64,000 bases of DNA, taken from contig CAVUVW010000019.1 of NCBI GenBank assembly GCA_963745035.1, positions 64,001 to 128,000 on the forward strand. Direction: 5' to 3'. Below, piece after piece: positions 23,527-31,173 of this stretch. Each line of letters opens with the position of its first letter. The first letter of the stretch is position 1. Below the pieces are notes generated by a model. The model was not told the origin of the DNA. It did not search any database and saw only the letters and a list, made by a program, of their open reading frames with translations. The translations under genes were made by a program, and so were the position numbers. Source of the stretch: an uncultured delta proteobacterium (GTDB lineage Bacteria > Desulfobacterota > Binatia > UBA9968).

Positions 23527-24529
23527 CTAGGAGCGCTTTTGCAGCGATTTAAAAAAGCCCTGCTTCTCCAGCTCGCGCAGGACATCTTCGTTCATGAATT
23601 CCTGCGCTTTCCTTCCTTTGGCATCGGCCCTGCTGTTGCCTAGATCGTCCACGACAACCTGAATCCCGGAAACTTCGCTGTAGGGCGGATAAGAAATTCT
23701 CGGCGCATAGCTCTTATAAGCACTGTCCAGCAAGGCCTTGTCCTGAGTGCGCATCCATTTGGAAAGACTTTTTTGGCCGAGAGCCGGATCGTTCTTGAAA
23801 ATATAAATCCCTTCACCGATCCCCTGCAGAAAACTTCGCACGAGGCCTCGCTTGGACGACTGCAGAGTCCTGGTCGTCATCAGACTGACGGTTGGAAACG
23901 AATCCGCCAATTCGCCCAGATCAAGCATGACCTGCATTCCGGAGGCTTTCGCTCGGTCGACGAAAGCGCCGGTGAGTACGGTGGCGTCGACCAGGCCATT
24001 TTGCAGCGCCGCGAGGCGGTCCCGGCTGCCGCCGGCGCGCACGAGGGTGACGCTCTTCTCATCGACGCCCCAGTGCCGCAGCGCCGTTGCGACGACGATC
24101 TGATTCAAGCCGACGACGGAAAGAACCCCGACCTTCTTGCCGCGCAAATCTTGCGGCGAGCGGATGCCGGGGCGGGCAACGAAACTGTAGGTATGCTTGT
24201 TGAAATAGGTGCCGATAATGATGATGTCGGCTCCCGAGAGATTCGCCGCGATATGGGGTTGCGGCGCGACCACGTCGAATTGAATCTCGCCGCCGGTCAG
24301 GGCGTGCGTCGACTCGGCGCCGCCGCGAAACAGAATCGGCTCGAGATTGAGCCCATACTTTTTGAATAAGCCGAGATCGACGGCAAGCCAAAGGGGAATC
24401 TGGTACCCGGAGATGCCGCTGTAACCCGCGCGCACCCGCTCTTGAGCGCGGCGGCACCGCGGCAGTGCAAAGATCGTCAAGCCCGCCAAAGCAACAGTGC
24501 AGAAAGCAATAAATCCGTTTGTGCTTCAT
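23527..24529 (-). CDS. NitT/TauT solute-binding protein (frameshift in signal peptide at about 24514)
   Basis: PLWLAVDLGLFKKYGL, DLRGKKVGV; start MKHKR rejoins FIAFCTVALAGL after a 1-nt correction. Confidence 0.82.
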
Positions 24530-24605
24530 GAGCCTACCTTTTTCCGATGACTGACGGCAGCGGAAGATGAGCAAAAAGCCAAACGACTCTCTACCGTCGG
24601 ATGAA

Positions 24606-25451
24606 TCATGCCCGGTGCGACAGCGGCCAGCGCAGCCATTCGGCGAGCGCCCGGCCCATTATCCATTCTTTGTCTTGGGCCGATAGAAAATCCAGCTCTT
24701 CGGTAAACAATGTGACTGCCTGGCGATAGGAGCAGGGGAGCTGCGAGAGATCCGTGCCCCAGAAAAGCCGTTGCGGCCCGAAAGTTTCGACGACGCGGCG
24801 AATCTGCGGATGCAAGGTCGGATAGGGATAAGCTTCGTCGACGTAGCAAGGGAGACAAGAAACTTTGACTCCGACGTTCTTGAAGCGCGCGAATTTGAGC
24901 AAGACATCGACGCCGGGTCCGAGATCCTTGCCTTTCCATTGCACGTTGAGCCCCATATGGTCGACGATCACGCGCAGATCGGGATGACGTGCGGCAATCT
25001 CGCCGATCTTCGCCACCGCGAAGGGCGCGAAAATCATGACCGGAATATCGTGGCGCTCGCAGTCCGCCCAGAACCAGTCCGCCGTGCCGTCATCGAGAAA
25101 CGAATGGGTGCCGCTGTGACGAAAACTGATGCGAAAACCCAGCATGCCCGGCTGTTTGAGCCAACTGGCGACGCGCCCTTTGCTCGCAGGATCGTTGAGC
25201 GGCACTTTGCCCATGACAGCAAAGCGATCGGGATATTTTTGCGCCGCTTCGAGCGCGTAATCATTCCGATAGCCTTCCCACGAGGGCGGCACCAAAATGA
25301 CCCGATCAACGCCTGCTGTCGACATTTCGCGCAGCAAATCTTCGTAGCCTAAAGGCACCGGACGGTGCGGCTTGGACGCATCTTCTTTGATGTACGGCCG
25401 CTCAGGACTTTCCGGCTTCCAGATGTGAACTTGCGCGTCGATGATGGTCAT
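24606..25451 (-). CDS. Amidohydrolase_2 family (L-fuconolactonase-like)
   Basis: IIDAQVHIW, VDHMG, LFWGTD. Confidence 0.88.
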   Translation of the reverse strand: MTIIDAQVHIWKPESPERPYIKEDASKPHRPVPLGYEDLLREMSTAGVDRVILVPPSWEGYRNDYALEAAQKYPDRFAVMGKVPLNDPASKGRVASWLKQPGMLGFRISFRHSGTHSFLDDGTADWFWADCERHDIPVMIFAPFAVAKIGEIAARHPDLRVIVDHMGLNVQWKGKDLGPGVDVLLKFARFKNVGVKVSCLPCYVDEAYPYPTLHPQIRRVVETFGPQRLFWGTDLSQLPCSYRQAVTLFTEELDFLSAQDKEWIMGRALAEWLRWPLSHRA

Positions 25452-25460
25452 TGGACTAAA

Positions 25461-26451
25461 TTATTTTCCGCTATTCACTTGCCGCACGAAGCGGTCGTCG
25501 AAGAACTGTGAGGGTTTGGCGGTCTTGGCTTCGGGGATCGTTTCGGAAAGAAAATCGAGCATGCCTTGCAGGCCCGGCTCGGACGTGACCAGCTCGCGGC
25601 GAAATCCCGCCTTCTTGTAGAATTCGTAGGTGCGGTCGAGAACTTCCTGATCGTTCTCCTTGGTGTATTTGCCGATCACTCTCGTGGCGAACGGCTTGTC
25701 GGCGTAGTAGCGCTCTATCCCTTGACGCACCGCACGCAGCAGCGGGGTGAGCCGGCTCGCCAGCTCATCGATACGGCTCCGTCTCACGACCAAGCCGACG
25801 TTTTGATAGGGCACATCGAGAAGGCTGACCATCGAATGAAAACCGGAGCGCTCCATTAGAAAACTGGCGGGCGGCGAGCCCACGCCGCCGACGATCTGTC
25901 CGGCATAGAAAGCGGCGACGATTTGCGGGCTGCTGCCGAGGGGGCGAAGTTGAACATCCTTCGCGGTGAGCCCCATTTTCTTTAGCGCCACCATCGTGCC
26001 GTACGCCACAGGGGTGCCGGGTCGGTCCGTGCCGACGATTTTTCCCTTCAGCTGTTCGACGCTTTTGATTTCCGGCCGGGCGTAAAAATCCCAGATCATC
26101 GTGTTGAGGAGGCCGGCGATAAAGACGACGTCGACGCCTCGAACCGAAGCGGTGATCACCGGCGCGGCGGAAACTTGCACGACGTCGAGCTCGTTGGCGA
26201 TCAGCGCCGGGTATCGCGGCGGTCGAAGGCATGGAAATCACCTCGGTATCCAGACCTTCCTTGGCTAACGCGCCGCTTTCCTTCGCCATCCAGACCGAGG
26301 CCATGGTGGCCGAAGTGCTCAGGTAGGCGATGCGTAAAGGCCGGGCCGAGCGCGCGCTCGTTTGCGCGCTGAGTGGCGCGGCGCTGGCGCAGATCAGCGC
26401 GAGCGGCAACAGTACCCTGGACAAAGCAGAAATGGTTCCTGTCCTAATCAT
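25461..26451 (-). CDS. NitT/TauT solute-binding protein (frameshift at about 26208)
   Basis: N-terminus in ORF 25765-26451 (LRIAYLS..VWMAKESG) continues in ORF 25461-26180. Confidence 0.82.
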
Positions 26452-26691
26452 GGGATAGTTTCCTCTTATCGGCTGTCAGCCAAATGGGGCGGCCACGAGT
26501 TGTAACACCTAGGTCATCGCGGCGGTCGCTGAGCGGATTGCGATCAGGTCGACCATCGGTTTACAAGGGCATAGCTCGTGCGCTATGAGTACAAACACCC
26601 CAGGACAGAAGCCGCAGCAGGATAGTAAACAATCGCACGAGCCCGGCGTCTATAAAGACGGACGGCGGAAGATAGAAAACCAGGAGGCGCT

Positions 26692-26853
26692 ATGAAAGGC
26701 TTGCCGGGAACTCTGTTGGCGCTCGCATTCGCCTGTTTCTCTTTGATTTCTCTGATCTCCATAAATCGCGACTGGGATAGCGCATTGGTGCAATTGACCG
26801 CTGACGAGTCGAAGCTTTCGGAGCTCGGGCTCCGCTTCGTTATACGGCCTTAG
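26692..26853 (+). CDS. Small membrane/secreted protein, 53 aa (not in ORF track)
   Basis: CAGGAGG RBS 5 nt before ATG; MKGLPGTLLALAFACFSLISLISINRDW.. Confidence 0.5.
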   Translation: MKGLPGTLLALAFACFSLISLISINRDWDSALVQLTADESKLSELGLRFVIRP

Positions 26854-26919
26854 CGGCGCTCACTCCAAACGCGTTCGCGCGCCAATTCGCAATCCGCACC
26901 GGAATCCCGTGAAATTCCA

Positions 26920-27480
26920 TCACGGCGTCGACCGCACCGCCGGTCGATCGAGCAGGCGTTCCATCCACCCCTTCACATGGGGCAGGTCGCTGCCGATGGT
27001 CGTCTGATAACGCTGCAGGCGACAAAAGAACGGGATGTAAGTAATATCGGCGAGGGAATACTCGCCGGCGATGTAGCGCCGGTCGCGCATCTCCCGATCC
27101 AGGTTCTCCAGATAGCCGCGCAGCCGTTCTTTCGATTTCTCCACCTCATGATCGTGAGCGATGTAGCCCGCAGCCGCCTGCAGGCGCGTATTGCAGTAAT
27201 CGATCCAGATGCGGGCGCGGGAGCGCAGCACTGGATCGCTCGGCATCAGCGGGACCTGCGGATATTTCTCTTCCAGATATTCGTTGATAATCGCCGACTC
27301 GTAGATGACGCCCTCGCCGTCTACCAGCACCGGAACCTTGCCGTACGGATTGAGCTCCAATAAGTCTTTGGGCTTGTTCGAGAGATCGCACTCGATGAGT
27401 TGGTGGGGAATCTTTTTCTCGGCCAGGACAATCCTTGTCCTGTGGGCGTACGGTCAAGGTTGATAAGAATAAAGCTTCAT
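26920..27480 (-). CDS. Glutathione S-transferase (omega/SspA-like) with in-frame TGA at codon 9, probable selenoprotein
   Basis: GGAGG RBS; MKLYSYQP*PYAHRTRIVLAEKKI..LNPYGKVPVL..ESAIINEYL in one frame; TGA at 27454-27456 sits at the C of the CPY motif. Confidence 0.9.
27424..27442 (-). promoter_or_regulatory. Putative bacterial SECIS hairpin
   Basis: mRNA CAGGACAA-GGA-UUGUCCUG: perfect 8-bp stem with G-containing loop starting 11 nt after UGA. Confidence 0.7.
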
Positions 27481-27881
27481 AACGATCCTCCCTTATATGA
27501 TTTAGCTTCAGTGTCGCCGCCAAAACGCTGGGTATGAATCACTGCCCTGCGGTGCAATCCTTCGCCGATCTTTACCCCCTCGTCGTTGGTCGCCGACACG
27601 GAGTAGCGAAGTTTATTTTCTTTCACTTCCAAAAGCTCGGCCCTGACCGTAACCTTCTGGCCGATCTTCGTTGGCGCCATGTGCCGCACGTCTACATGAA
27701 TCCCGACGGTCTGCTCGTTCGGATCGAGATAAGGCTCGGTCAATTCGACGCAGGTTCTTTCCATCAGGCCGATCATCGCCGGAGTCGAAAAAACATCCGC
27801 CTCGAGCTGGCCGGCGCGCATTTCCTGGGTGGTGGCGTAGGTGCGGGTGCGCGTGATGCCTGGCGCCACATCATTGGTCAT
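27477..27881 (-). CDS. Hotdog-fold thioesterase (fluoroacetyl-CoA thioesterase-like)
   Basis: VFSTPAMIGLME..TVGIHVDVRHMAPT..GEGLHRRAVI; ATGA overlap with GST start. Confidence 0.88.
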   Translation of the reverse strand: MTNDVAPGITRTRTYATTQEMRAGQLEADVFSTPAMIGLMERTCVELTEPYLDPNEQTVGIHVDVRHMAPTKIGQKVTVRAELLEVKENKLRYSVSATNDEGVKIGEGLHRRAVIHTQRFGGDTEAKSYKGGSL

Positions 27882-27990
27882 ACGGCGAATATACGGGAGT
27901 TGCCGAGCCGGAAGCAACACTACCGTTGAACGATGTGACCGCGCAGAAATTTAATGTTATGAGAAGACAAACCAAGAAGGAGCGCCGAAC

Positions 27991-29031
27991 ATGCTATTGC
28001 CGTTCCGGGAACATCTCGATTTCGGCCCCACGCCCTACGACGTTCTCCAGGCCGAGGAGGGGATTCCGATCATCAAAGGGAACGTCGTGCACGACGTCAC
28101 GACCTTGGAGCTGGCTCCCTGGAAGCGCATGGGAGCGCTGGGCTGCTATCTCAATCTTTCCAATCAACAGCAGACCGATGCGTACGTCTGCGAGATTCCG
28201 CCCGGCAGTGAAACCCTGCCGCAGCGCCATCTGTTTGAAGAAATCATCTACGTGGCCAAAGGGCGCGGCGCCACCGCCATCTGGCAGGACGGCACCGGCA
28301 AGGTGACCTTCGAATGGGGCCCGGGAGCGATCTTCGCCATCCCGCTCAATTCCTCCTACGTTCACTACAACGGGTCCCGCGACGAGGCGGTGCGGCTGTT
28401 TGCGGGCACCACCTGCCCGCGCATGATCAATATTTTTCACAACCAGGAATTCATTTTCCGCAATCCCTTCAATTTCCGTGACCGCTTTCATCAAGGCGAT
28501 GATTTTTTGAGGTTCAATAAACACATCACGGACCGGTATTGGGAAACCAACCTGGTTCCGGACGTAAATCAATTTCCGCTCGACGATTTTCCGATGAAAG
28601 GGAAGGGTGTGCGGCACATGCGCTTCACCTTGGCGGATACGACTTACGGCTGCCACGTTTCGGAGTTTCCGCCGGGCTGCCGCAGCACTTTTCACCGCCA
28701 CGGCCCGGGCGCGGTGATCATCATCACTCAAGGCGAAGGCTACGTCATGCTCTGGAAAGACGGCGAGGAGCGGAAGCGCCATGAGTTCAAGGTCGGCACG
28801 GTCTATTCGCCGAACGACCTCATGTGGCACGGCCACTTCAATACCGGCAAGGGCACCATGCGCCACTTTGCCATGCGCGGCGACAGTCCCAAGTACAGCC
28901 ACGACCGCTTCCGCAATCCGCTCTGGACGATGATCCCCATGGAAGACGAAACTCCGGAGATTCAAAAAGAGTATGTACGCATTCTCGCGGAGAAAGGAGT
29001 CGAGGCGGCGGTGCAGGTGGTTGAAGATTGA
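27991..29031 (+). CDS. Bicupin protein (gentisate dioxygenase-like)
   Basis: AAGGAG RBS; two cupin motifs QRHLFEEIIYV and FHRHGPGA..HGHFNT. Confidence 0.82.
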   Translation: MLLPFREHLDFGPTPYDVLQAEEGIPIIKGNVVHDVTTLELAPWKRMGALGCYLNLSNQQQTDAYVCEIPPGSETLPQRHLFEEIIYVAKGRGATAIWQDGTGKVTFEWGPGAIFAIPLNSSYVHYNGSRDEAVRLFAGTTCPRMINIFHNQEFIFRNPFNFRDRFHQGDDFLRFNKHITDRYWETNLVPDVNQFPLDDFPMKGKGVRHMRFTLADTTYGCHVSEFPPGCRSTFHRHGPGAVIIITQGEGYVMLWKDGEERKRHEFKVGTVYSPNDLMWHGHFNTGKGTMRHFAMRGDSPKYSHDRFRNPLWTMIPMEDETPEIQKEYVRILAEKGVEAAVQVVED

Positions 29032-29076
29032 CCGTATAACTCAGTAGATGAACCCAGAGCAAACAAGGAGGCTGCC

Positions 29077-30120
29077 ATGGTGAATTGTCCGGTGATCGAT
29101 GCCGACGGGCATGTGTTGGAGAAGGAAAAATATATTCGCAAATACCTTGAAGCTCCCTGGAACAAGCGCTCCACGTCGCTGCGCACCCGCGACCAGCCCT
29201 GGGACGCCAATCTCTTCGATAGCTTCGACATGGCGGTGCGCTGGGAAGACTTGAGCCCAAAGGAGCAGATCGATGAGTGGCATGCGGTGATGGAGCGGGA
29301 GGGGATGGAGTACGCCATTTGTTTTCCTACCGGCTCGGGCAACGTCTCGAAGATACAGGAGCTGGATTTCGCGCTCGCCGTGGCGCGCGCGTGCAACACC
29401 CATTTCGCCAAGGAGTTCAACGCGCTCTCCGACCGGGTGAGCTGCGTCGGCGTGCTTCCGCTGCGTGATCCCAAGGCCGCGGCCGAAGAGCTGCGGCGCG
29501 GCGTGACCGAGCTGGGATTGAAGGGGTTCGAAATCTTGCCGATGGGTTTGCCCATGGCGCTCGGCAGCACGTTTTACGATCCGGTTTATGCCGAGGCGGA
29601 AAAGTTGGGCGCGGTGATCGGCATCCACGGCTCGCGCAGCAACTCGCACGAGATCGGCGCAGCAAATCTATCGACCTTCGCCGAAGTGCACTCCTATGCA
29701 TTCACGGTCGGTTTGCTGCTTCAGTTCACTCACGTCGTATGCCAGGGCTTGCCGGTGCGCTTCCCCAACTTGAAATTGGCTTTTTTGGAGATCGGCGCGA
29801 CGTGGCTGCCGTACTATCTGGACCGCTTGGATGAGCACTGGGAAAAGCGCGCCAAGCACGAGATGCCGCTGCTGAAAGAGAAACCTAGTGATCTGGTGCG
29901 CAAATCGAAGATGTATTTCAGTCTGGAATCGGGCGAGTCGCTGCTGCCGGAGTCGATCAATTATCTCGGCGCGGAGCATTTCCTGTACGCCTCGGACATC
30001 CCGCATTGGGACAACGAGTTTCCGGGCAATCTCCACGCGCTGAGAAATCATCCACGAATTTCCGACGCCGATAAGGAAAAGATTCTTTACAGCAACGCGA
30101 AGGCACTGTTCGGTCTGTAG
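29077..30120 (+). CDS. Amidohydrolase_2 family protein
   Basis: IDADGH, IHG, FLEIG, YASDIPHWD. Confidence 0.9.
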   Translation: MVNCPVIDADGHVLEKEKYIRKYLEAPWNKRSTSLRTRDQPWDANLFDSFDMAVRWEDLSPKEQIDEWHAVMEREGMEYAICFPTGSGNVSKIQELDFALAVARACNTHFAKEFNALSDRVSCVGVLPLRDPKAAAEELRRGVTELGLKGFEILPMGLPMALGSTFYDPVYAEAEKLGAVIGIHGSRSNSHEIGAANLSTFAEVHSYAFTVGLLLQFTHVVCQGLPVRFPNLKLAFLEIGATWLPYYLDRLDEHWEKRAKHEMPLLKEKPSDLVRKSKMYFSLESGESLLPESINYLGAEHFLYASDIPHWDNEFPGNLHALRNHPRISDADKEKILYSNAKALFGL

Positions 30121-30159
30121 GATCGTCCGGTCGATTGGTTCCAGATCGTGAGGATTAGC

Positions 30160-31173
30160 ATGAATTATCTCCGGGTGAACGTACGAAAACTCCGTGCTGT
30201 CTGTTTACTGATCGCATCCCTAGCAGCGCCGAATGCAGCTAGGGCGGCGGACAAGCTGGTAGCTTTGTATTCCGCGCATGCCGTTCCCTACGCGATGCCT
30301 TGGGTGGCGGAGGAATTGGGGCTGCTGAAGAAATACGACATCGATTTGGAGTTCGTTTATATACCGTCGTCGTCGGCCGCGACGGCGGCGCTTCTTGGCG
30401 GCAACGTCGAGATCGCATTATTGGGAGGTGTCGGCATCGTCAATGCATACGTCAACGGTGCCTCGGACGTGGTGTTCATCGGCAGCATAAAGAACATCAT
30501 GACTCAGAGCATTCTGGCCAAGCCCGACGTTACCAAGTTGGAGCAGCTCAAAGGCAAGCGCGTCGGCGTGACCCGCATCGGCAGCAACACGCACTACTTC
30601 ACGGTCCAGGCGTTTCGCCGCGCCGGCATGAACACGGACAAGGACATTATCTTCATTCAGACGGGCGGCGAAGCGGAAACCGTAGGCGCTCTCGTCAGCG
30701 GCCGCATCGATGCCGCGACTCTGCTGCCGCCGAGCGACGGCAAAGCGCTCGCTCAAGGATTCCGTTATGTCGTATTCGGGCCGGATATCGGCATCCCTTA
30801 CGCTGCATCGACGATTACGACGCGCCGTTCGGTGATCGGCAAGCGCGGTCCGGTCCTAGGCCGCTTTATGCGCGCCATGGCAGAAGCCTCCAGAGCGATG
30901 CATCGCGACCGGGAAATCGTTTACCGCGTGATGGAGAAGAAGCTGCGAATCAAAGATCGAGCCGTTCTAGAAAGCAGTTACAACATCGAGATGAAGGTGA
31001 TGGAGCCGCGCCTGGAAATCAAGCCTCAGGCGCTGCAGCCGATGATCGAAGAGGTCGCGAGAAATAATCCGCGGGCCAACGATGTCAAGCCGCAGGATTT
31101 GATGGACCGCCGGTATCTCGCTGAAATGGAGAGTAGCGGGTTTTTCAAACAGCTGTGGAACGAGAAGCGCTGA
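30160..31173 (+). CDS. NitT/TauT solute-binding protein
   Basis: Signal peptide; LKGKRVGVTRIGSNT; GRIDAA. Confidence 0.87.
   Translation: MNYLRVNVRKLRAVCLLIASLAAPNAARAADKLVALYSAHAVPYAMPWVAEELGLLKKYDIDLEFVYIPSSSAATAALLGGNVEIALLGGVGIVNAYVNGASDVVFIGSIKNIMTQSILAKPDVTKLEQLKGKRVGVTRIGSNTHYFTVQAFRRAGMNTDKDIIFIQTGGEAETVGALVSGRIDAATLLPPSDGKALAQGFRYVVFGPDIGIPYAASTITTRRSVIGKRGPVLGRFMRAMAEASRAMHRDREIVYRVMEKKLRIKDRAVLESSYNIEMKVMEPRLEIKPQALQPMIEEVARNNPRANDVKPQDLMDRRYLAEMESSGFFKQLWNEKR

What the first reader, a model, noticed from the sequence alone, without database searches (positions are those of the whole stretch)
26920..27480. Hidden selenoprotein: GST with UGA at the catalytic cysteine and a SECIS-like hairpin
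Seen: from an ATG with GGAGG RBS the frame reads MKLYSYQP-TGA-PYAHRTRIVLAEKK.. and continues in frame through a complete 186-codon GST. The TGA occupies the Cys of the C-P-Y/F motif. Eleven nt downstream is a perfect stem CAGGACAA-GGA-TTGTCCTG. Known: omega-type GSTs use this Cys; bacterial Sec insertion uses a hairpin just 3' of UGA (11-nt spacing in E. coli fdhF); Sec-containing GST-like proteins are reported from environmental sequences but poorly characterised. Inference: a Sec-GST coupled to a hotdog thioesterase by an ATGA overlap, implying selA/selB/selC/selD in this organism.
Basis: partly seen in the sequence, partly recalled or inferred. Interest (0 to 1): 0.8.

Follow-up and report, generated by a model that had tools for sequence, protein, structure and literature searches.

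The report
Selenocysteine GST gene in Binatia
A soil bacterium's glutathione-transferase gene has a conserved in-frame UGA and a hairpin that almost certainly put selenocysteine at the catalytic site; this enzyme type is already listed among bacterial selenoproteins, but public gene calls nearly always cut it short.

Summary
On the minus strand, ATG 27480 opens a 186-codon GST. Codon 9 is TGA (27456-27454). An 8-bp/3-nt-loop hairpin (27442-27424) starts 11 nt after it.

It is very probably a real selenoprotein gene:
- The genome has tRNA-Sec, a selA-selB-selD cluster (SelD itself has a UGA) and a UGA-containing FdnG.
- Codon 9 is TGA in 175 distinct orthologous genes from relatives and soil metagenomes. 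Their terminal stops are mixed: TAA 62, TGA 58, TAG 50.
- Synonymous variation collapses exactly over the hairpin, which is built from rare codons (AGG is 4% of Arg codons).
- The one Cys (TGT) lineage, nested among Sec forms, keeps the residues HRTRIVL but has lost the hairpin through synonymous changes.
- 78 of 97 distant homologues have Cys at this column, in a C-P-F/Y motif.

"GST-like protein" has been a listed prokaryotic selenoprotein family since 2005, so this is a new member of a known kind. What is new is local. The Sec form is the rule across one order of Binatia-labelled MAGs, often as two paralogues per genome. Public gene calls are almost all truncated.

The thioesterase overlap is real here but limited to the closest relatives. 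Function is inferred: a glutathione-dependent thiol-transferase or reductase.

The parts
26920..27480 (-). Sec-GST coding sequence: 186 codons including Sec9, plus stop TGA 26922-26920
   Evidence: translation. (GST_N_2 1e-21, GST_N_3 3e-21, GST_C 1e-10). 160 of 170 orthologues that reach a stop also have 186 codons.
27454..27456 (-). In-frame UGA, codon 9, read as selenocysteine (inferred)
   Evidence: TGA in 175 of 175 distinct Sec-type orthologues, while their terminal stops are TAA 62/TGA 58/TAG 50. It aligns with Cys in 78 of 97 distant representatives and with the Cys of CPFSQR/CPFSHR in PDB 6v91, 4hoj and 4qq7.
27424..27442 (-). SECIS-type hairpin CAGGACAA-GGA-UUGUCCUG: 8 bp, loop GGA, starting 11 nt after UGA (19 nt from UGA to loop)
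   Evidence: Synonymous entropy is 0-0.7 bits at codons 13-19 against 1.2-2.3 bits at other invariant 4- and 6-fold residues. 95.9% of cells are paired in 139 distinct rows. It meets the four constraints of the published bSECIS model (PMC13188914, Fig. 2 legend).
27487..27491 (-). Shine-Dalgarno GGAGG, 6 nt before the ATG
   Evidence: Read directly. AGGAGG- or GGAGG-like strings precede the start in most orthologues printed.
27477..27920 (-). Upstream FlK/4HBT hotdog thioesterase ORF; its stop overlaps the GST start (ATGA). The true start may lie further in, since the FlK match begins at residue 35.
   Evidence: PF22636 FlK 3e-32. Found upstream only in the closest orthologues.

Best explanation
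This is a functional selenoprotein gene. The mRNA for a cytosolic Cys-type (omega/SspA-like) glutathione transferase carries UGA at codon 9. The hairpin that starts 11 nt downstream acts as a bacterial SECIS: SelB with Sec-tRNA(Sec) binds it on the translating ribosome and inserts selenocysteine instead of terminating. Sec9 sits in the U-P-Y-A motif, where homologues have the catalytic Cys of C-P-F/Y. The glutathione-site residues (V49-P50, E61-S62) are kept. The enzyme most likely works as a monothiol-type thiol-transferase or reductase: the selenolate attacks a glutathionylated or oxidised substrate, forms an enzyme-Se-S-glutathione intermediate, and a second GSH releases GSSG. Shown by computation here: the gene anatomy, the Sec machinery, conservation of UGA and hairpin, and the Sec/Cys pairing. 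Inferred: actual Sec insertion, SelB binding, the chemistry and the substrate. The confidence given is for Sec insertion; I put about 0.5 on the stated chemistry.
For: (1) Sec machinery in the same genome. tRNA-Sec scores 76.7 bits and ARAGORN calls SeC(tca). selA scores 592 bits, selB 347 bits and selD 385 bits, adjacent on contig C17. Two classic selenoprotein genes also carry in-frame UGA: SelD (..KAAG-U-AAKLG..) and FdnG (..HQARL-U-HSSTV.., 1268 bits). FdnG has a hairpin that again starts 11 nt after UGA, with loop GGUCU. SelD has GUGCAA-GUU-UUGCAC.
(2) UGA is a normal stop in this genome: it ends 2233 of 4943 long frames. No code change explains the in-frame TGA.
(3) 38 of 41 genomes of the genus and order have a TGA-bearing orthologue at 49-89% identity. 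In the single-contig genomes G025, G026, G028, G037 and G038, selA and the TGA-GST lie on the same contig, which rules out a binning artefact.
(4) Codon 9 is TGA in 104 of 108 distinct genes and 71 of 72. Terminal stops are TAA 62, TGA 58, TAG 50.
(5) The frame is under protein-level selection on both sides of the UGA. Leu3 is invariant with 6 codons in use, Pro10 with 3 and Ala12 with 4.
(6) RNA-level constraint lies exactly on the hairpin: AGG 99/104, ACA 93/104, AGG 104/104, GTC 104/104. Genome-wide, AGG is 4% of Arg codons and ACA 7.8% of Thr codons.
(7) Natural control. The only Cys (TGT) lineage (L157, L162) is nested among Sec forms. It keeps HRTRIVL but reads CAGAACACGAATCGTCCTG, three synonymous changes that break the stem.
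(8) Two compensatory changes occur at pair 7: A-U to G-C and A-U to U-A.
(9) The hairpin meets the published bSECIS model: loop 3-9 nt, stem 4-16 bp, G in the first two loop positions, 16-37 nt from UGA to loop, MFE <= -7.5 (PMC13188914 Fig. 2 legend; -9.2 kcal/mol).
(10) Sec/Cys pairing: 78 of 97 full-length representatives at 30-50% identity have Cys in C-P-F/Y at this column.
(11) gshB (399 bits) and a GCS2-type glutamate-cysteine ligase (235 bits) are present.
(12) A 762-nt contig of DNA run X2 and a 201-nt contig of RNA-library run X15 both cover TGA and hairpin, with no difference there.
Against: There is no protein-level evidence of any kind, and the tools cannot give any. Folding energy is unremarkable: z = -0.74, and 46 of 200 shuffles fold as well. 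Covariation is thin. Four of 8 pairs never vary, and only 4 cells in 2 pairs change on both sides. 15 of 139 rows have a non-pair at pair 7, and 12 and 19 rows are unpaired at the two outermost pairs. The argument therefore rests on synonymous-site conservation rather than covariation. The Cys control is a single evolutionary event. selA was not found in G009 (93% complete) or G010 (60%), although both carry a TGA-GST, nor in G001 (65%). The window's genome is a MAG with 5.8% contamination, and the sel genes lie on another contig. No Rfam family matched. No NCBIfam model reached its cut-off; the best was SspA at 119 bits against 314. The RNA-library contig does not prove transcription. No structure model could be made because the tool was off, so the position of Sec at the start of helix alpha-1 rests on sequence alignment only. 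The chemistry and substrate are inferred from homologues.
Confidence: 0.9

Rival explanations
1. The UGA is a true stop. The gene is a pseudogene, or only an N-terminally shortened GST is made from an internal start, as public gene calls assume.
For: 118 of the 120 best database hits are calls of 134-177 aa that begin after the TGA. The ORF listing itself gives a 146-aa ORF from TTG 27360.
Against: TGA is fixed at codon 9 in 175 distinct genes, while true stops vary among three codons. Codons 1-8 are under purifying selection in the same frame, with a Shine-Dalgarno site before codon 1. Gene callers pick many different internal starts (134 to 177 aa), so there is no conserved one. A product starting at residue 41 or later would lack the first strand and helix of the thioredoxin fold and the catalytic motif.
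Confidence: 0.03
2. The UGA is read through, but as a standard amino acid (Trp, Cys, Gly or Arg) by a near-cognate tRNA or a changed code, not as Sec.
For: One JGI gene call (P0003) prints W at this position. Cys works at this site in homologues.
Against: UGA is the commonest ordinary stop in this genome. The GST's own terminator and the thioesterase's stop are both TGA. The complete Sec machinery and other UGA-selenoprotein genes are present. A SECIS-type hairpin is conserved and is lost exactly where TGA became TGT.
Confidence: 0.03
3. It is a Sec-containing SspA-like protein: a non-enzymatic, RNA-polymerase-associated regulator rather than a glutathione-dependent enzyme.
For: The best PDB and NCBIfam matches are SspA/RegF-like proteins: 6v91, 4hoj and 4qq7 at E about 1e-33, and NF007016 at 119 bits.
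Against: The NF007016 score is far below its cut-off of 314. The glutathione-site columns C9, P10, V49, P50, E61 and S62 are invariant or nearly so across 82 homologues and are present here. Paying for Sec at a catalytic-type position argues for redox chemistry. Recalled, not tested here: E. coli SspA lacks this Cys and does not bind GSH.
Confidence: 0.07
4. The hairpin is a by-product of the conserved peptide HRTRIVL and has no RNA function.
For: The residues are invariant or nearly so. Folding energy is not exceptional. Most stem pairs never vary.
Against: The residues allow 6x4x6x3x4x6 codon choices, yet rare codons are fixed; the joint probability is about 2e-6 under genome codon usage. 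Other invariant Leu, Pro and Val columns use 4-6 codons. The Cys form keeps the peptide and changes three of these codons.
Confidence: 0.02

Closest known systems
[quoted passage not shown] Zhang, Fomenko & Gladyshev 2005, Sargasso Sea (PMC1088965, tables seen). GOS 2008 (PMC2398784, table seen). Reviews of 2022 and 2026 (PMC9312934, PMC13188914, tables and passages seen).
   Same: GST domains COG0625/PF13409, which is the top Pfam hit here. A single in-frame UGA, no UxxC motif, predicted by bioinformatics only, function uncharacterised.
   Different: The published cases are few and marine: 4 Sec sequences in the Sargasso data, and 12 Sec against 1,036 Cys homologues in GOS. Here the Sec form is the rule in a soil lineage: 166 Sec against 2 Cys in the clade. 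I could not compare sequences or the Sec position. The surveys' sequences are in supplements or accessions that I could not fetch, so membership in the same subfamily is untested.
Omega-class GST (human GSTO1, PDB 1eem)
   Same: A Cys-type active site C-P-F/Y-A. The match query 2-183 = chain 25-213 puts U9 on residue 32 if there is no gap; I recall residue 32 as the catalytic Cys32. A monothiol mechanism with an enzyme-SG intermediate is recalled.
   Different: E is only 1.7e-24. There is no roughly 20-residue N-terminal extension: 8 residues precede the active site here against 31. The protein is 186 aa against 241. It has selenium instead of sulfur.
Bacterial SspA/RegF-like Cys-GST homologues (PDB 6v91, 4hoj, 4qq7)
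   Same: These are the best sequence matches, E 2e-33 to 6e-33 over the full length. Cys in CPFSQR/CPFSHR aligns with U9 (alignments).
   Different: The window protein scores 119 bits against the SspA equivalog cut-off of 314. The motif is U-P-Y-A-H-R. A regulatory role is neither shown nor expected.
E. coli fdhF-type bacterial SECIS and the general bSECIS model (PMC13188914, section 5 and Fig. 2 legend)
   Same: A hairpin inside the coding region directly 3' of UGA, a small apical loop beginning GG or GU, 19 nt from UGA to loop, and MFE below -7.5. The 11-nt spacing equals that recalled for fdhF and that seen in this genome's own FdnG gene.
   Different: A shorter, perfect 8-bp stem with a 3-nt loop. 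It has no bulged U, a feature recalled for fdhF. No Rfam model covers it.

Membership tests
Bacterial selenoprotein gene (UGA-Sec decoding) | In-frame UGA conserved among orthologues at one position | tested here: met
   TGA in 104 of 108 and 71 of 72 distinct genes. 175 distinct TGA genes in all, with mixed terminal stops.
Bacterial selenoprotein gene (UGA-Sec decoding) | Cys-containing homologues with Cys aligned to the UGA | tested here: met
   One nested TGT lineage. 78 of 97 distant representatives have Cys. The PDB alignments agree.
Bacterial selenoprotein gene (UGA-Sec decoding) | SECIS stem-loop just 3' of UGA that fits the bSECIS model | tested here: met
   8 bp, loop GGA, 19 nt from UGA to loop, -9.2 kcal/mol, set against the model in PMC13188914. 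Synonymous sites are frozen. Covariation is weak.
Bacterial selenoprotein gene (UGA-Sec decoding) | selA, selB, selC and selD in the genome | tested here: met
   all over the curated cut-offs. selA is in 38 of 41 relatives.
Bacterial selenoprotein gene (UGA-Sec decoding) | Selenium shown in the protein (75Se labelling or mass spectrometry) | not testable with these tools
   No proteomic data were reachable.
GST-like prokaryotic selenoprotein family (Zhang et al. 2005) | GST N- and C-terminal domains (COG0625/PF13409) | tested here: met
   PF13409 at 77.7 bits against cut-off 25; PF00043 at 42.1 bits against cut-off 20.7.
GST-like prokaryotic selenoprotein family (Zhang et al. 2005) | Sec at the same alignment column as the published members | not tested
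   The published sequences (supplements; accessions MEK9676863.1 and PPR62222.1 named in the reviews) could not be fetched. Supplements are closed.
Omega-class GST | Catalytic Cys in a C-P-F/Y-A motif at the start of helix alpha-1 | tested here: met
   U-P-Y-A aligns to C-P-F/Y in homologues. The helix position was not modelled because the structure tool was off.
Omega-class GST | Proline-rich N-terminal extension of about 20 residues (recalled feature) | tested here: not met
   Only 8 residues precede Sec9. The GSTO1 match starts at chain residue 25.
Stringent starvation protein SspA (NCBIfam NF007016) | Score over the equivalog cut-off of 314 bits | tested here: not met
   119.1 bits.

The most novel reading that the evidence does not exclude
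An order-wide clade of Binatia-labelled soil bacteria has fixed selenocysteine, not cysteine, as the catalytic residue of a GST. The clade is often present as two paralogues per genome. Its SECIS core (GGACAAGG[A/C]UUGUCC) has stayed frozen across more than 50% protein divergence. Only one reversion to Cys was seen. This would be the first GST lineage in which Sec is the rule rather than a rare marine variant, and it may deserve recognition as a selenol-dependent GST subclass. It is hidden from all current annotation.
Probability: 0.4. Interest if true: 0.5.

Novelty: new member of a known kind. Interest (0 to 1): 0.4.

Why it matters
It adds a well-supported, lineage-wide case to a selenoprotein family that has been known only from a handful of marine reads and has never been characterised.

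Binatia-labelled MAGs, which are uncultured and mostly from soil, appear to use selenium routinely: sel genes, Sec-SelD, Sec-FdnG and one or two Sec-GSTs. I found no paper that links Binatia with selenoproteins.

There is also a concrete annotation fault. 118 of the 120 nearest database proteins are truncated calls that lack the active site, and no NCBIfam model exists for them.

The natural Sec/Cys pair at about 90% identity, together with the very short and invariant SECIS, makes a convenient system. It could be used to test what Sec buys a GST, and what a minimal SelB-binding hairpin is.

Tried and rejected
Rfam scan of 27350-27500 at E <= 10 gave only a spurious 9-bit lncRNA match. I take this to mean that Rfam has no model for this hairpin, not that the hairpin is not a SECIS.

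A genome-wide regex for TGA followed by an apical CAAG[GT]NTTG gave 43 hits. Only SelD and the two Sec-GSTs were credible, and the rest looked like out-of-frame noise. I dropped the idea of a shared 'CAA-GKN-UUG' SelB motif, because FdnG's hairpin does not have it.

The second part (contig C8, 17227-19424) was read in one frame across two matches and produced meaningless stops. I draw nothing from it.

The promoter/terminator scan of 26400-28100 found no promoter-like site and 3 terminator-like sites against 1.7 expected. It was uninformative.

I looked for a conserved neighbour that would give a function. The thioesterase is adjacent in 17 and farther off in 11 of 157 loci with room, duplicates included. 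Clustering of flanking frames in 67 distinct loci gave no neighbour present in more than 15 loci. Those seen were an NMT1-type binding protein, the thioesterase, Amidohydro_2, an ABC permease, a PP-loop protein and a CDGSH-like protein. Many clusters were spurious GC-rich frames. I therefore rejected a pathway-specific reading, for example gentisate or aromatic-CoA catabolism, which the bicupin (27991-29031), the amidohydrolases and the thioesterase in the window might suggest. The bicupin scores 18.9 bits against a gentisate-dioxygenase cut-off of 442.

PF04262 (gshA type) was not found; a GCS2-type ligase was found instead.

In read laying, runs X7 and X16 did not cover the TGA. X7 had only a 31-nt piece at 27421-27450. 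Uncovered parts are no evidence. Habitat labels of the runs are not used as evidence.

I did not use complex prediction, the protein-atlas search, fold search, build_rna_model or the look-up of encoding contigs.

Supplements of the Sargasso and GOS papers, which may hold the marine Sec-GST sequences, are closed. Whether those have Sec at the same column is open.
Full report
OBSERVATION. The feature lies on the minus strand. GGAGG (27491-27487) precedes ATG 27480 by six bases. The frame reads MKLYSYQP, then TGA (27456-27454), then PYAHRTRIVLAEKK... It stays open for 186 codons to TGA 26922-26920. Eleven bases after the in-frame TGA comes CAGGACAA-GGA-TTGTCCTG (27442-27424). The read-through protein matches GST_N_2, GST_N_3, GST_N and GST_C over its whole length. 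The upstream ORF (27920-27477) is a FlK/4HBT hotdog thioesterase, and its stop overlaps the GST start in ATGA. On folding energy alone the hairpin is not special: -11.8 kcal/mol for 61 nt, z = -0.74, and 46 of 200 shuffles fold as well. The stem-loop alone gives -9.2 kcal/mol.

THE ORGANISM CAN DECODE UGA AS SEC. The window is contig C19 of a 7.4-Mb, 28-contig genome, 92.6% complete and 5.8% contaminated. The genome has a tRNA-Sec (76.7 bits against a gathering score of 47; ARAGORN calls SeC, anticodon tca). It also has adjacent selA (592 bits), selB (347 bits plus a C-terminal part) and selD (385 bits) on contig C17. SelD itself has an in-frame UGA at the usual site (..KAAG-U-AAKLG..), with a GUGCAA-GUU-UUGCAC hairpin 27 nt downstream. 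An FdnG-type formate dehydrogenase (1268 bits) has the classic ..HQARL-U-HSSTV.. UGA. Its hairpin, GGUCGCC-GGUCU-GGCGGCC, starts 11 nt downstream, the same spacing as in the GST. UGA is otherwise the commonest stop in the genome, ending 2233 of 4943 frames of 300 codons or more. The code is standard.

THE UGA IS CONSERVED AS UGA. A read-through search of 41 genomes of the genus and order found TGA-bearing orthologues at 49-89% identity in 38 of them. There were 57 such places. None were found in G001 (65% complete), G004 or G036. The window's own genome has a second copy at 61% identity on contig C21. I fetched these places, 80 titled genome records and 80 metagenome contigs. One 5'-truncated locus (L129) was dropped. 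Codon 9 is TGA in 104 of 108 distinct genes of the first set; the other four are 1 TGT and 3 TCN, the TCN genes being 39-43%-identical 'SPNCQR' paralogues. In the second set it is TGA in 71 of 72, with 1 TGT, even though that set was collected with the Cys form as query. Together that makes 175 distinct TGA genes. Of the 170 that reach a terminator, 62 end in TAA, 58 in TGA and 50 in TAG, and 160 of the 170 have exactly 186 codons. A stop codon that never drifts to TAA or TAG is not acting as a stop.

BINNING, ASSEMBLY AND READS. In five single-contig genomes (G025, G026, G028, G037, G038), selA and the TGA-GST are on the same contig. Binning error therefore cannot explain the co-occurrence. 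selA was found in 38 of 41 relatives. It was not found in G001 (65% complete), G009 (93%) or G010 (60%), and G009 and G010 do carry a TGA-GST. Public-run assemblies agree with the window. A 762-nt contig of DNA run X2 (26728-27489, 5 differences) and a 201-nt contig of RNA-library run X15 (27274-27474, 4 differences) both cover TGA and hairpin with no change there. The RNA-library contig is only a weak hint of transcription.

BOTH SIDES OF THE UGA ARE TRANSLATED IN ONE FRAME. Among 104 Sec-type genes, Leu3 is invariant while using all six codons (2.31 bits). Ser5 uses four codons, Pro10 three and Ala12 four. This is purifying selection on the protein upstream and downstream of the UGA in the same frame. 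The internal starts chosen by gene callers are scattered, giving products of 134 to 177 aa.

THE HAIRPIN IS UNDER RNA-LEVEL SELECTION TIED TO THE UGA. Synonymous entropy falls to 0-0.7 bits at codons 13-19: CAC 98/104, AGG 99, ACA 93, AGG 104, CTT or ATT, GTC 104, CTG 91. Other invariant 4- and 6-fold columns in the first 60 codons (L3, P10, A12, A20, L33, L40, P45, V49, P50, V51, L52, V58) show 1.2-2.3 bits. The fixed codons are rare ones in this genome. AGG is 4.0% of Arg codons and ACA 7.8% of Thr codons, and the seven-codon string has probability about 2e-6 given its residues. In 139 distinct 54-nt segments, 95.9% of stem cells are standard pairs. Four pairs never vary. Pair 7 shows A-U to G-C once and A-U to U-A once, but also 15 non-pairs. 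The two outer pairs are unpaired in 19 and 12 rows. Covariation is therefore real but thin, and I lean on the synonymous-site evidence.

THE CYS FORM IS A NATURAL CONTROL. The best control comes from the Cys form (L157, L162; protein cluster of P0121, P0294, P0295, P0298). It sits inside the Sec clade on a tree of 171 distinct proteins: 166 Sec, 2 Cys and 3 Ser as outgroup, with SH-aLRT 92 for the Cys pair. Its nearest Sec relatives are about 90% identical. It keeps HRTRIVL, yet reads CAGAACACGAATCGTCCTG. AGG has become AGA, AGG has become CGA and ATT has become ATC, which destroys the stem. This is one evolutionary event, not a statistic.

FIT TO THE PUBLISHED SECIS MODEL. The hairpin meets all four constraints of the published bacterial SECIS model: loop 3-9 nt, upper stem 4-16 bp, G in the first two loop positions (mostly G followed by G or U), 16-37 nt from UGA to loop, and MFE <= -7.5 kcal/mol (PMC13188914, section 5 and Fig. 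2 legend, passages read). Rfam has no match.

WHAT THE PROTEIN IS. By sequence the nearest solved structures are bacterial SspA/RegF-like proteins (6v91, 4hoj, 4qq7; E 2e-33 to 6e-33). Their CPFSQR or CPFSHR Cys aligns with U9. Next come plant tau-class GSTs and human omega-class GSTO1 (1eem, E 1.7e-24, query 2-183 on chain 25-213). A search of 1.84 billion cluster representatives gave 34 hits at E <= 1e-30. Of the 97 listed representatives of 180-240 aa, 78 have Cys at the Sec column, mostly in C-P-F/Y; 12 have Ser, 2 Asp, 1 Asn and 4 start later. In an 82-sequence alignment, C9, P10, R14, V49, P50, E61 and S62 are invariant or nearly so. From general knowledge of GSTs I recognise these as the catalytic residue, the cis-Pro loop and the Glu-Ser pair of the glutathione site. 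That is recalled, not modelled, because the structure tool was off. The genome encodes gshB and a GCS2-type glutamate-cysteine ligase. No NCBIfam model reaches its cut-off; SspA scores 119 bits against 314. I therefore call it a Cys-type (omega/SspA-like) GST with Sec as nucleophile. It is not an Omega-class member, since it lacks the N-terminal extension, and it is not SspA.

MECHANISM (inferred). During translation SelB-GTP-Sec-tRNA(Sec) binds the hairpin and delivers Sec at UGA-9. In the enzyme, with no second Cys in the motif, the selenolate would attack a glutathionyl-thioether, a mixed disulfide or an oxidised substrate, forming E-Se-SG. A second GSH regenerates the enzyme. I put about 0.9 on Sec insertion and about 0.5 on this chemistry. 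The substrate is unknown.

CONTEXT. In the window the gene follows the thioesterase. It faces a bicupin (27991-29031) and an Amidohydro_2 gene, and NMT1-type binding proteins lie nearby. The thioesterase is upstream only in the nearest relatives: 17 adjacent and 11 farther off among 157 loci with room, duplicates included. No neighbour occurs in more than 15 of 67 distinct loci. The overlap is real here but does not define the family, and I draw no pathway from it.

DISTRIBUTION AND ANNOTATION. Titled records of the relatives are MAGs labelled mostly 'Candidatus Binatia bacterium' or 'Deltaproteobacteria bacterium'. In a draw of 151 genomes of the class, 18 had a match at E <= 1e-45. All 18 are in the three families of the window's order (17 of 18 sampled genomes of that order besides the window's own). 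None of 132 genomes in 16 other families had one. In a draw of 301 genomes of the phylum, only the window's genome and one genome of the same family matched. Every full-length match had one TGA. The tree shows two paralogous clades within the genus, each with its own copy in the window's genome. In the protein database, 118 of the 120 best hits are truncated calls. One call prints W at the TGA, and one is the Cys form. Public names are 'glutathione S-transferase (family protein)', for example 159- and 164-aa NCBI entries.

COMPARISON WITH WHAT IS KNOWN. 'Glutathione S-transferase' is one of the 15 selenoprotein families first reported from the Sargasso Sea, with 4 sequences (PMC1088965, tables read). 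It has 12 Sec sequences against 1,036 Cys homologues in GOS (PMC2398784, table read). It is listed as 'GST-like protein', PF13409/COG0625, function uncharacterised, in the 2022 and 2026 reviews (PMC9312934, PMC13188914, passages read). So the kind is known. I could not obtain those sequences, and supplements are closed, so identity of subfamily and of Sec position is untested. Searches for Binatota plus selenocysteine gave 1 unrelated paper (listing only). Binatia plus selenoprotein gave 0 papers. Selenoprotein plus GST-like plus Sec-containing gave 1 unrelated paper (listing only). The deep-Sep paper mentions neither glutathione nor GST. Within the held library, this lineage-wide Sec-GST is therefore not described.

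VERDICT. This is a new member of a known kind.

Noticed in passing
G000 contig C17:315264-319742 and C17:371273-371363 (outside the window): selA, selB and selD lie head to tail. SelD itself has an in-frame UGA (genome position 318846), followed 27 nt later by GUGCAA-GUU-UUGCAC. tRNA-Sec lies about 52 kb further on.
   Followed up: partly
G000 contig C14:603436-606417 (outside the window): An FdnG-type formate dehydrogenase alpha subunit has UGA at 603976 (..HQARL-U-HSSTV..). Its hairpin starts 11 nt downstream, the same spacing as in the GST.
   Followed up: partly
G000 contig C21:173947-174501 (L062) and C21:190105-190695: A second Sec-GST paralogue (61% identical, same hairpin) lies about 16 kb from a Ser-type GST paralogue (40% identical, no TGA). 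The same pairing of hits on one contig appears in several relatives.
   Followed up: partly
window 25461-26451, minus strand: An NMT1-type substrate-binding protein gene seems split between two frames near 26180-26200. The 239-aa ORF matches NMT1 profile positions 53-211. The 90 residues upstream, in another frame, carry a signal-peptide-like start and a weak NMT1_2 match to positions 6-47 (E 0.12). This could be a frameshift or an assembly error.
   Followed up: partly
window 23527-31173: The neighbourhood is rich in Amidohydro_2 genes (24606-25451 on the minus strand, 29077-30120 on the plus strand) and NMT1-type binding proteins (23527-24489, 30148-31173), plus a bicupin (27991-29031). It looks like a catabolic island of unknown substrate.
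   Followed up: no
Protein P0003 (JGI call, 211 aa): One public gene call reads the Sec codon as W and starts 25 residues upstream, as if called under a TGA=Trp code.
   Followed up: no
G019:C14:191492-192745: The selA match in relative G019 has one in-frame TAG and stops at profile position 419. It may be a broken or mis-assembled selA, in a genome that still carries three TGA-GST copies.
   Followed up: no
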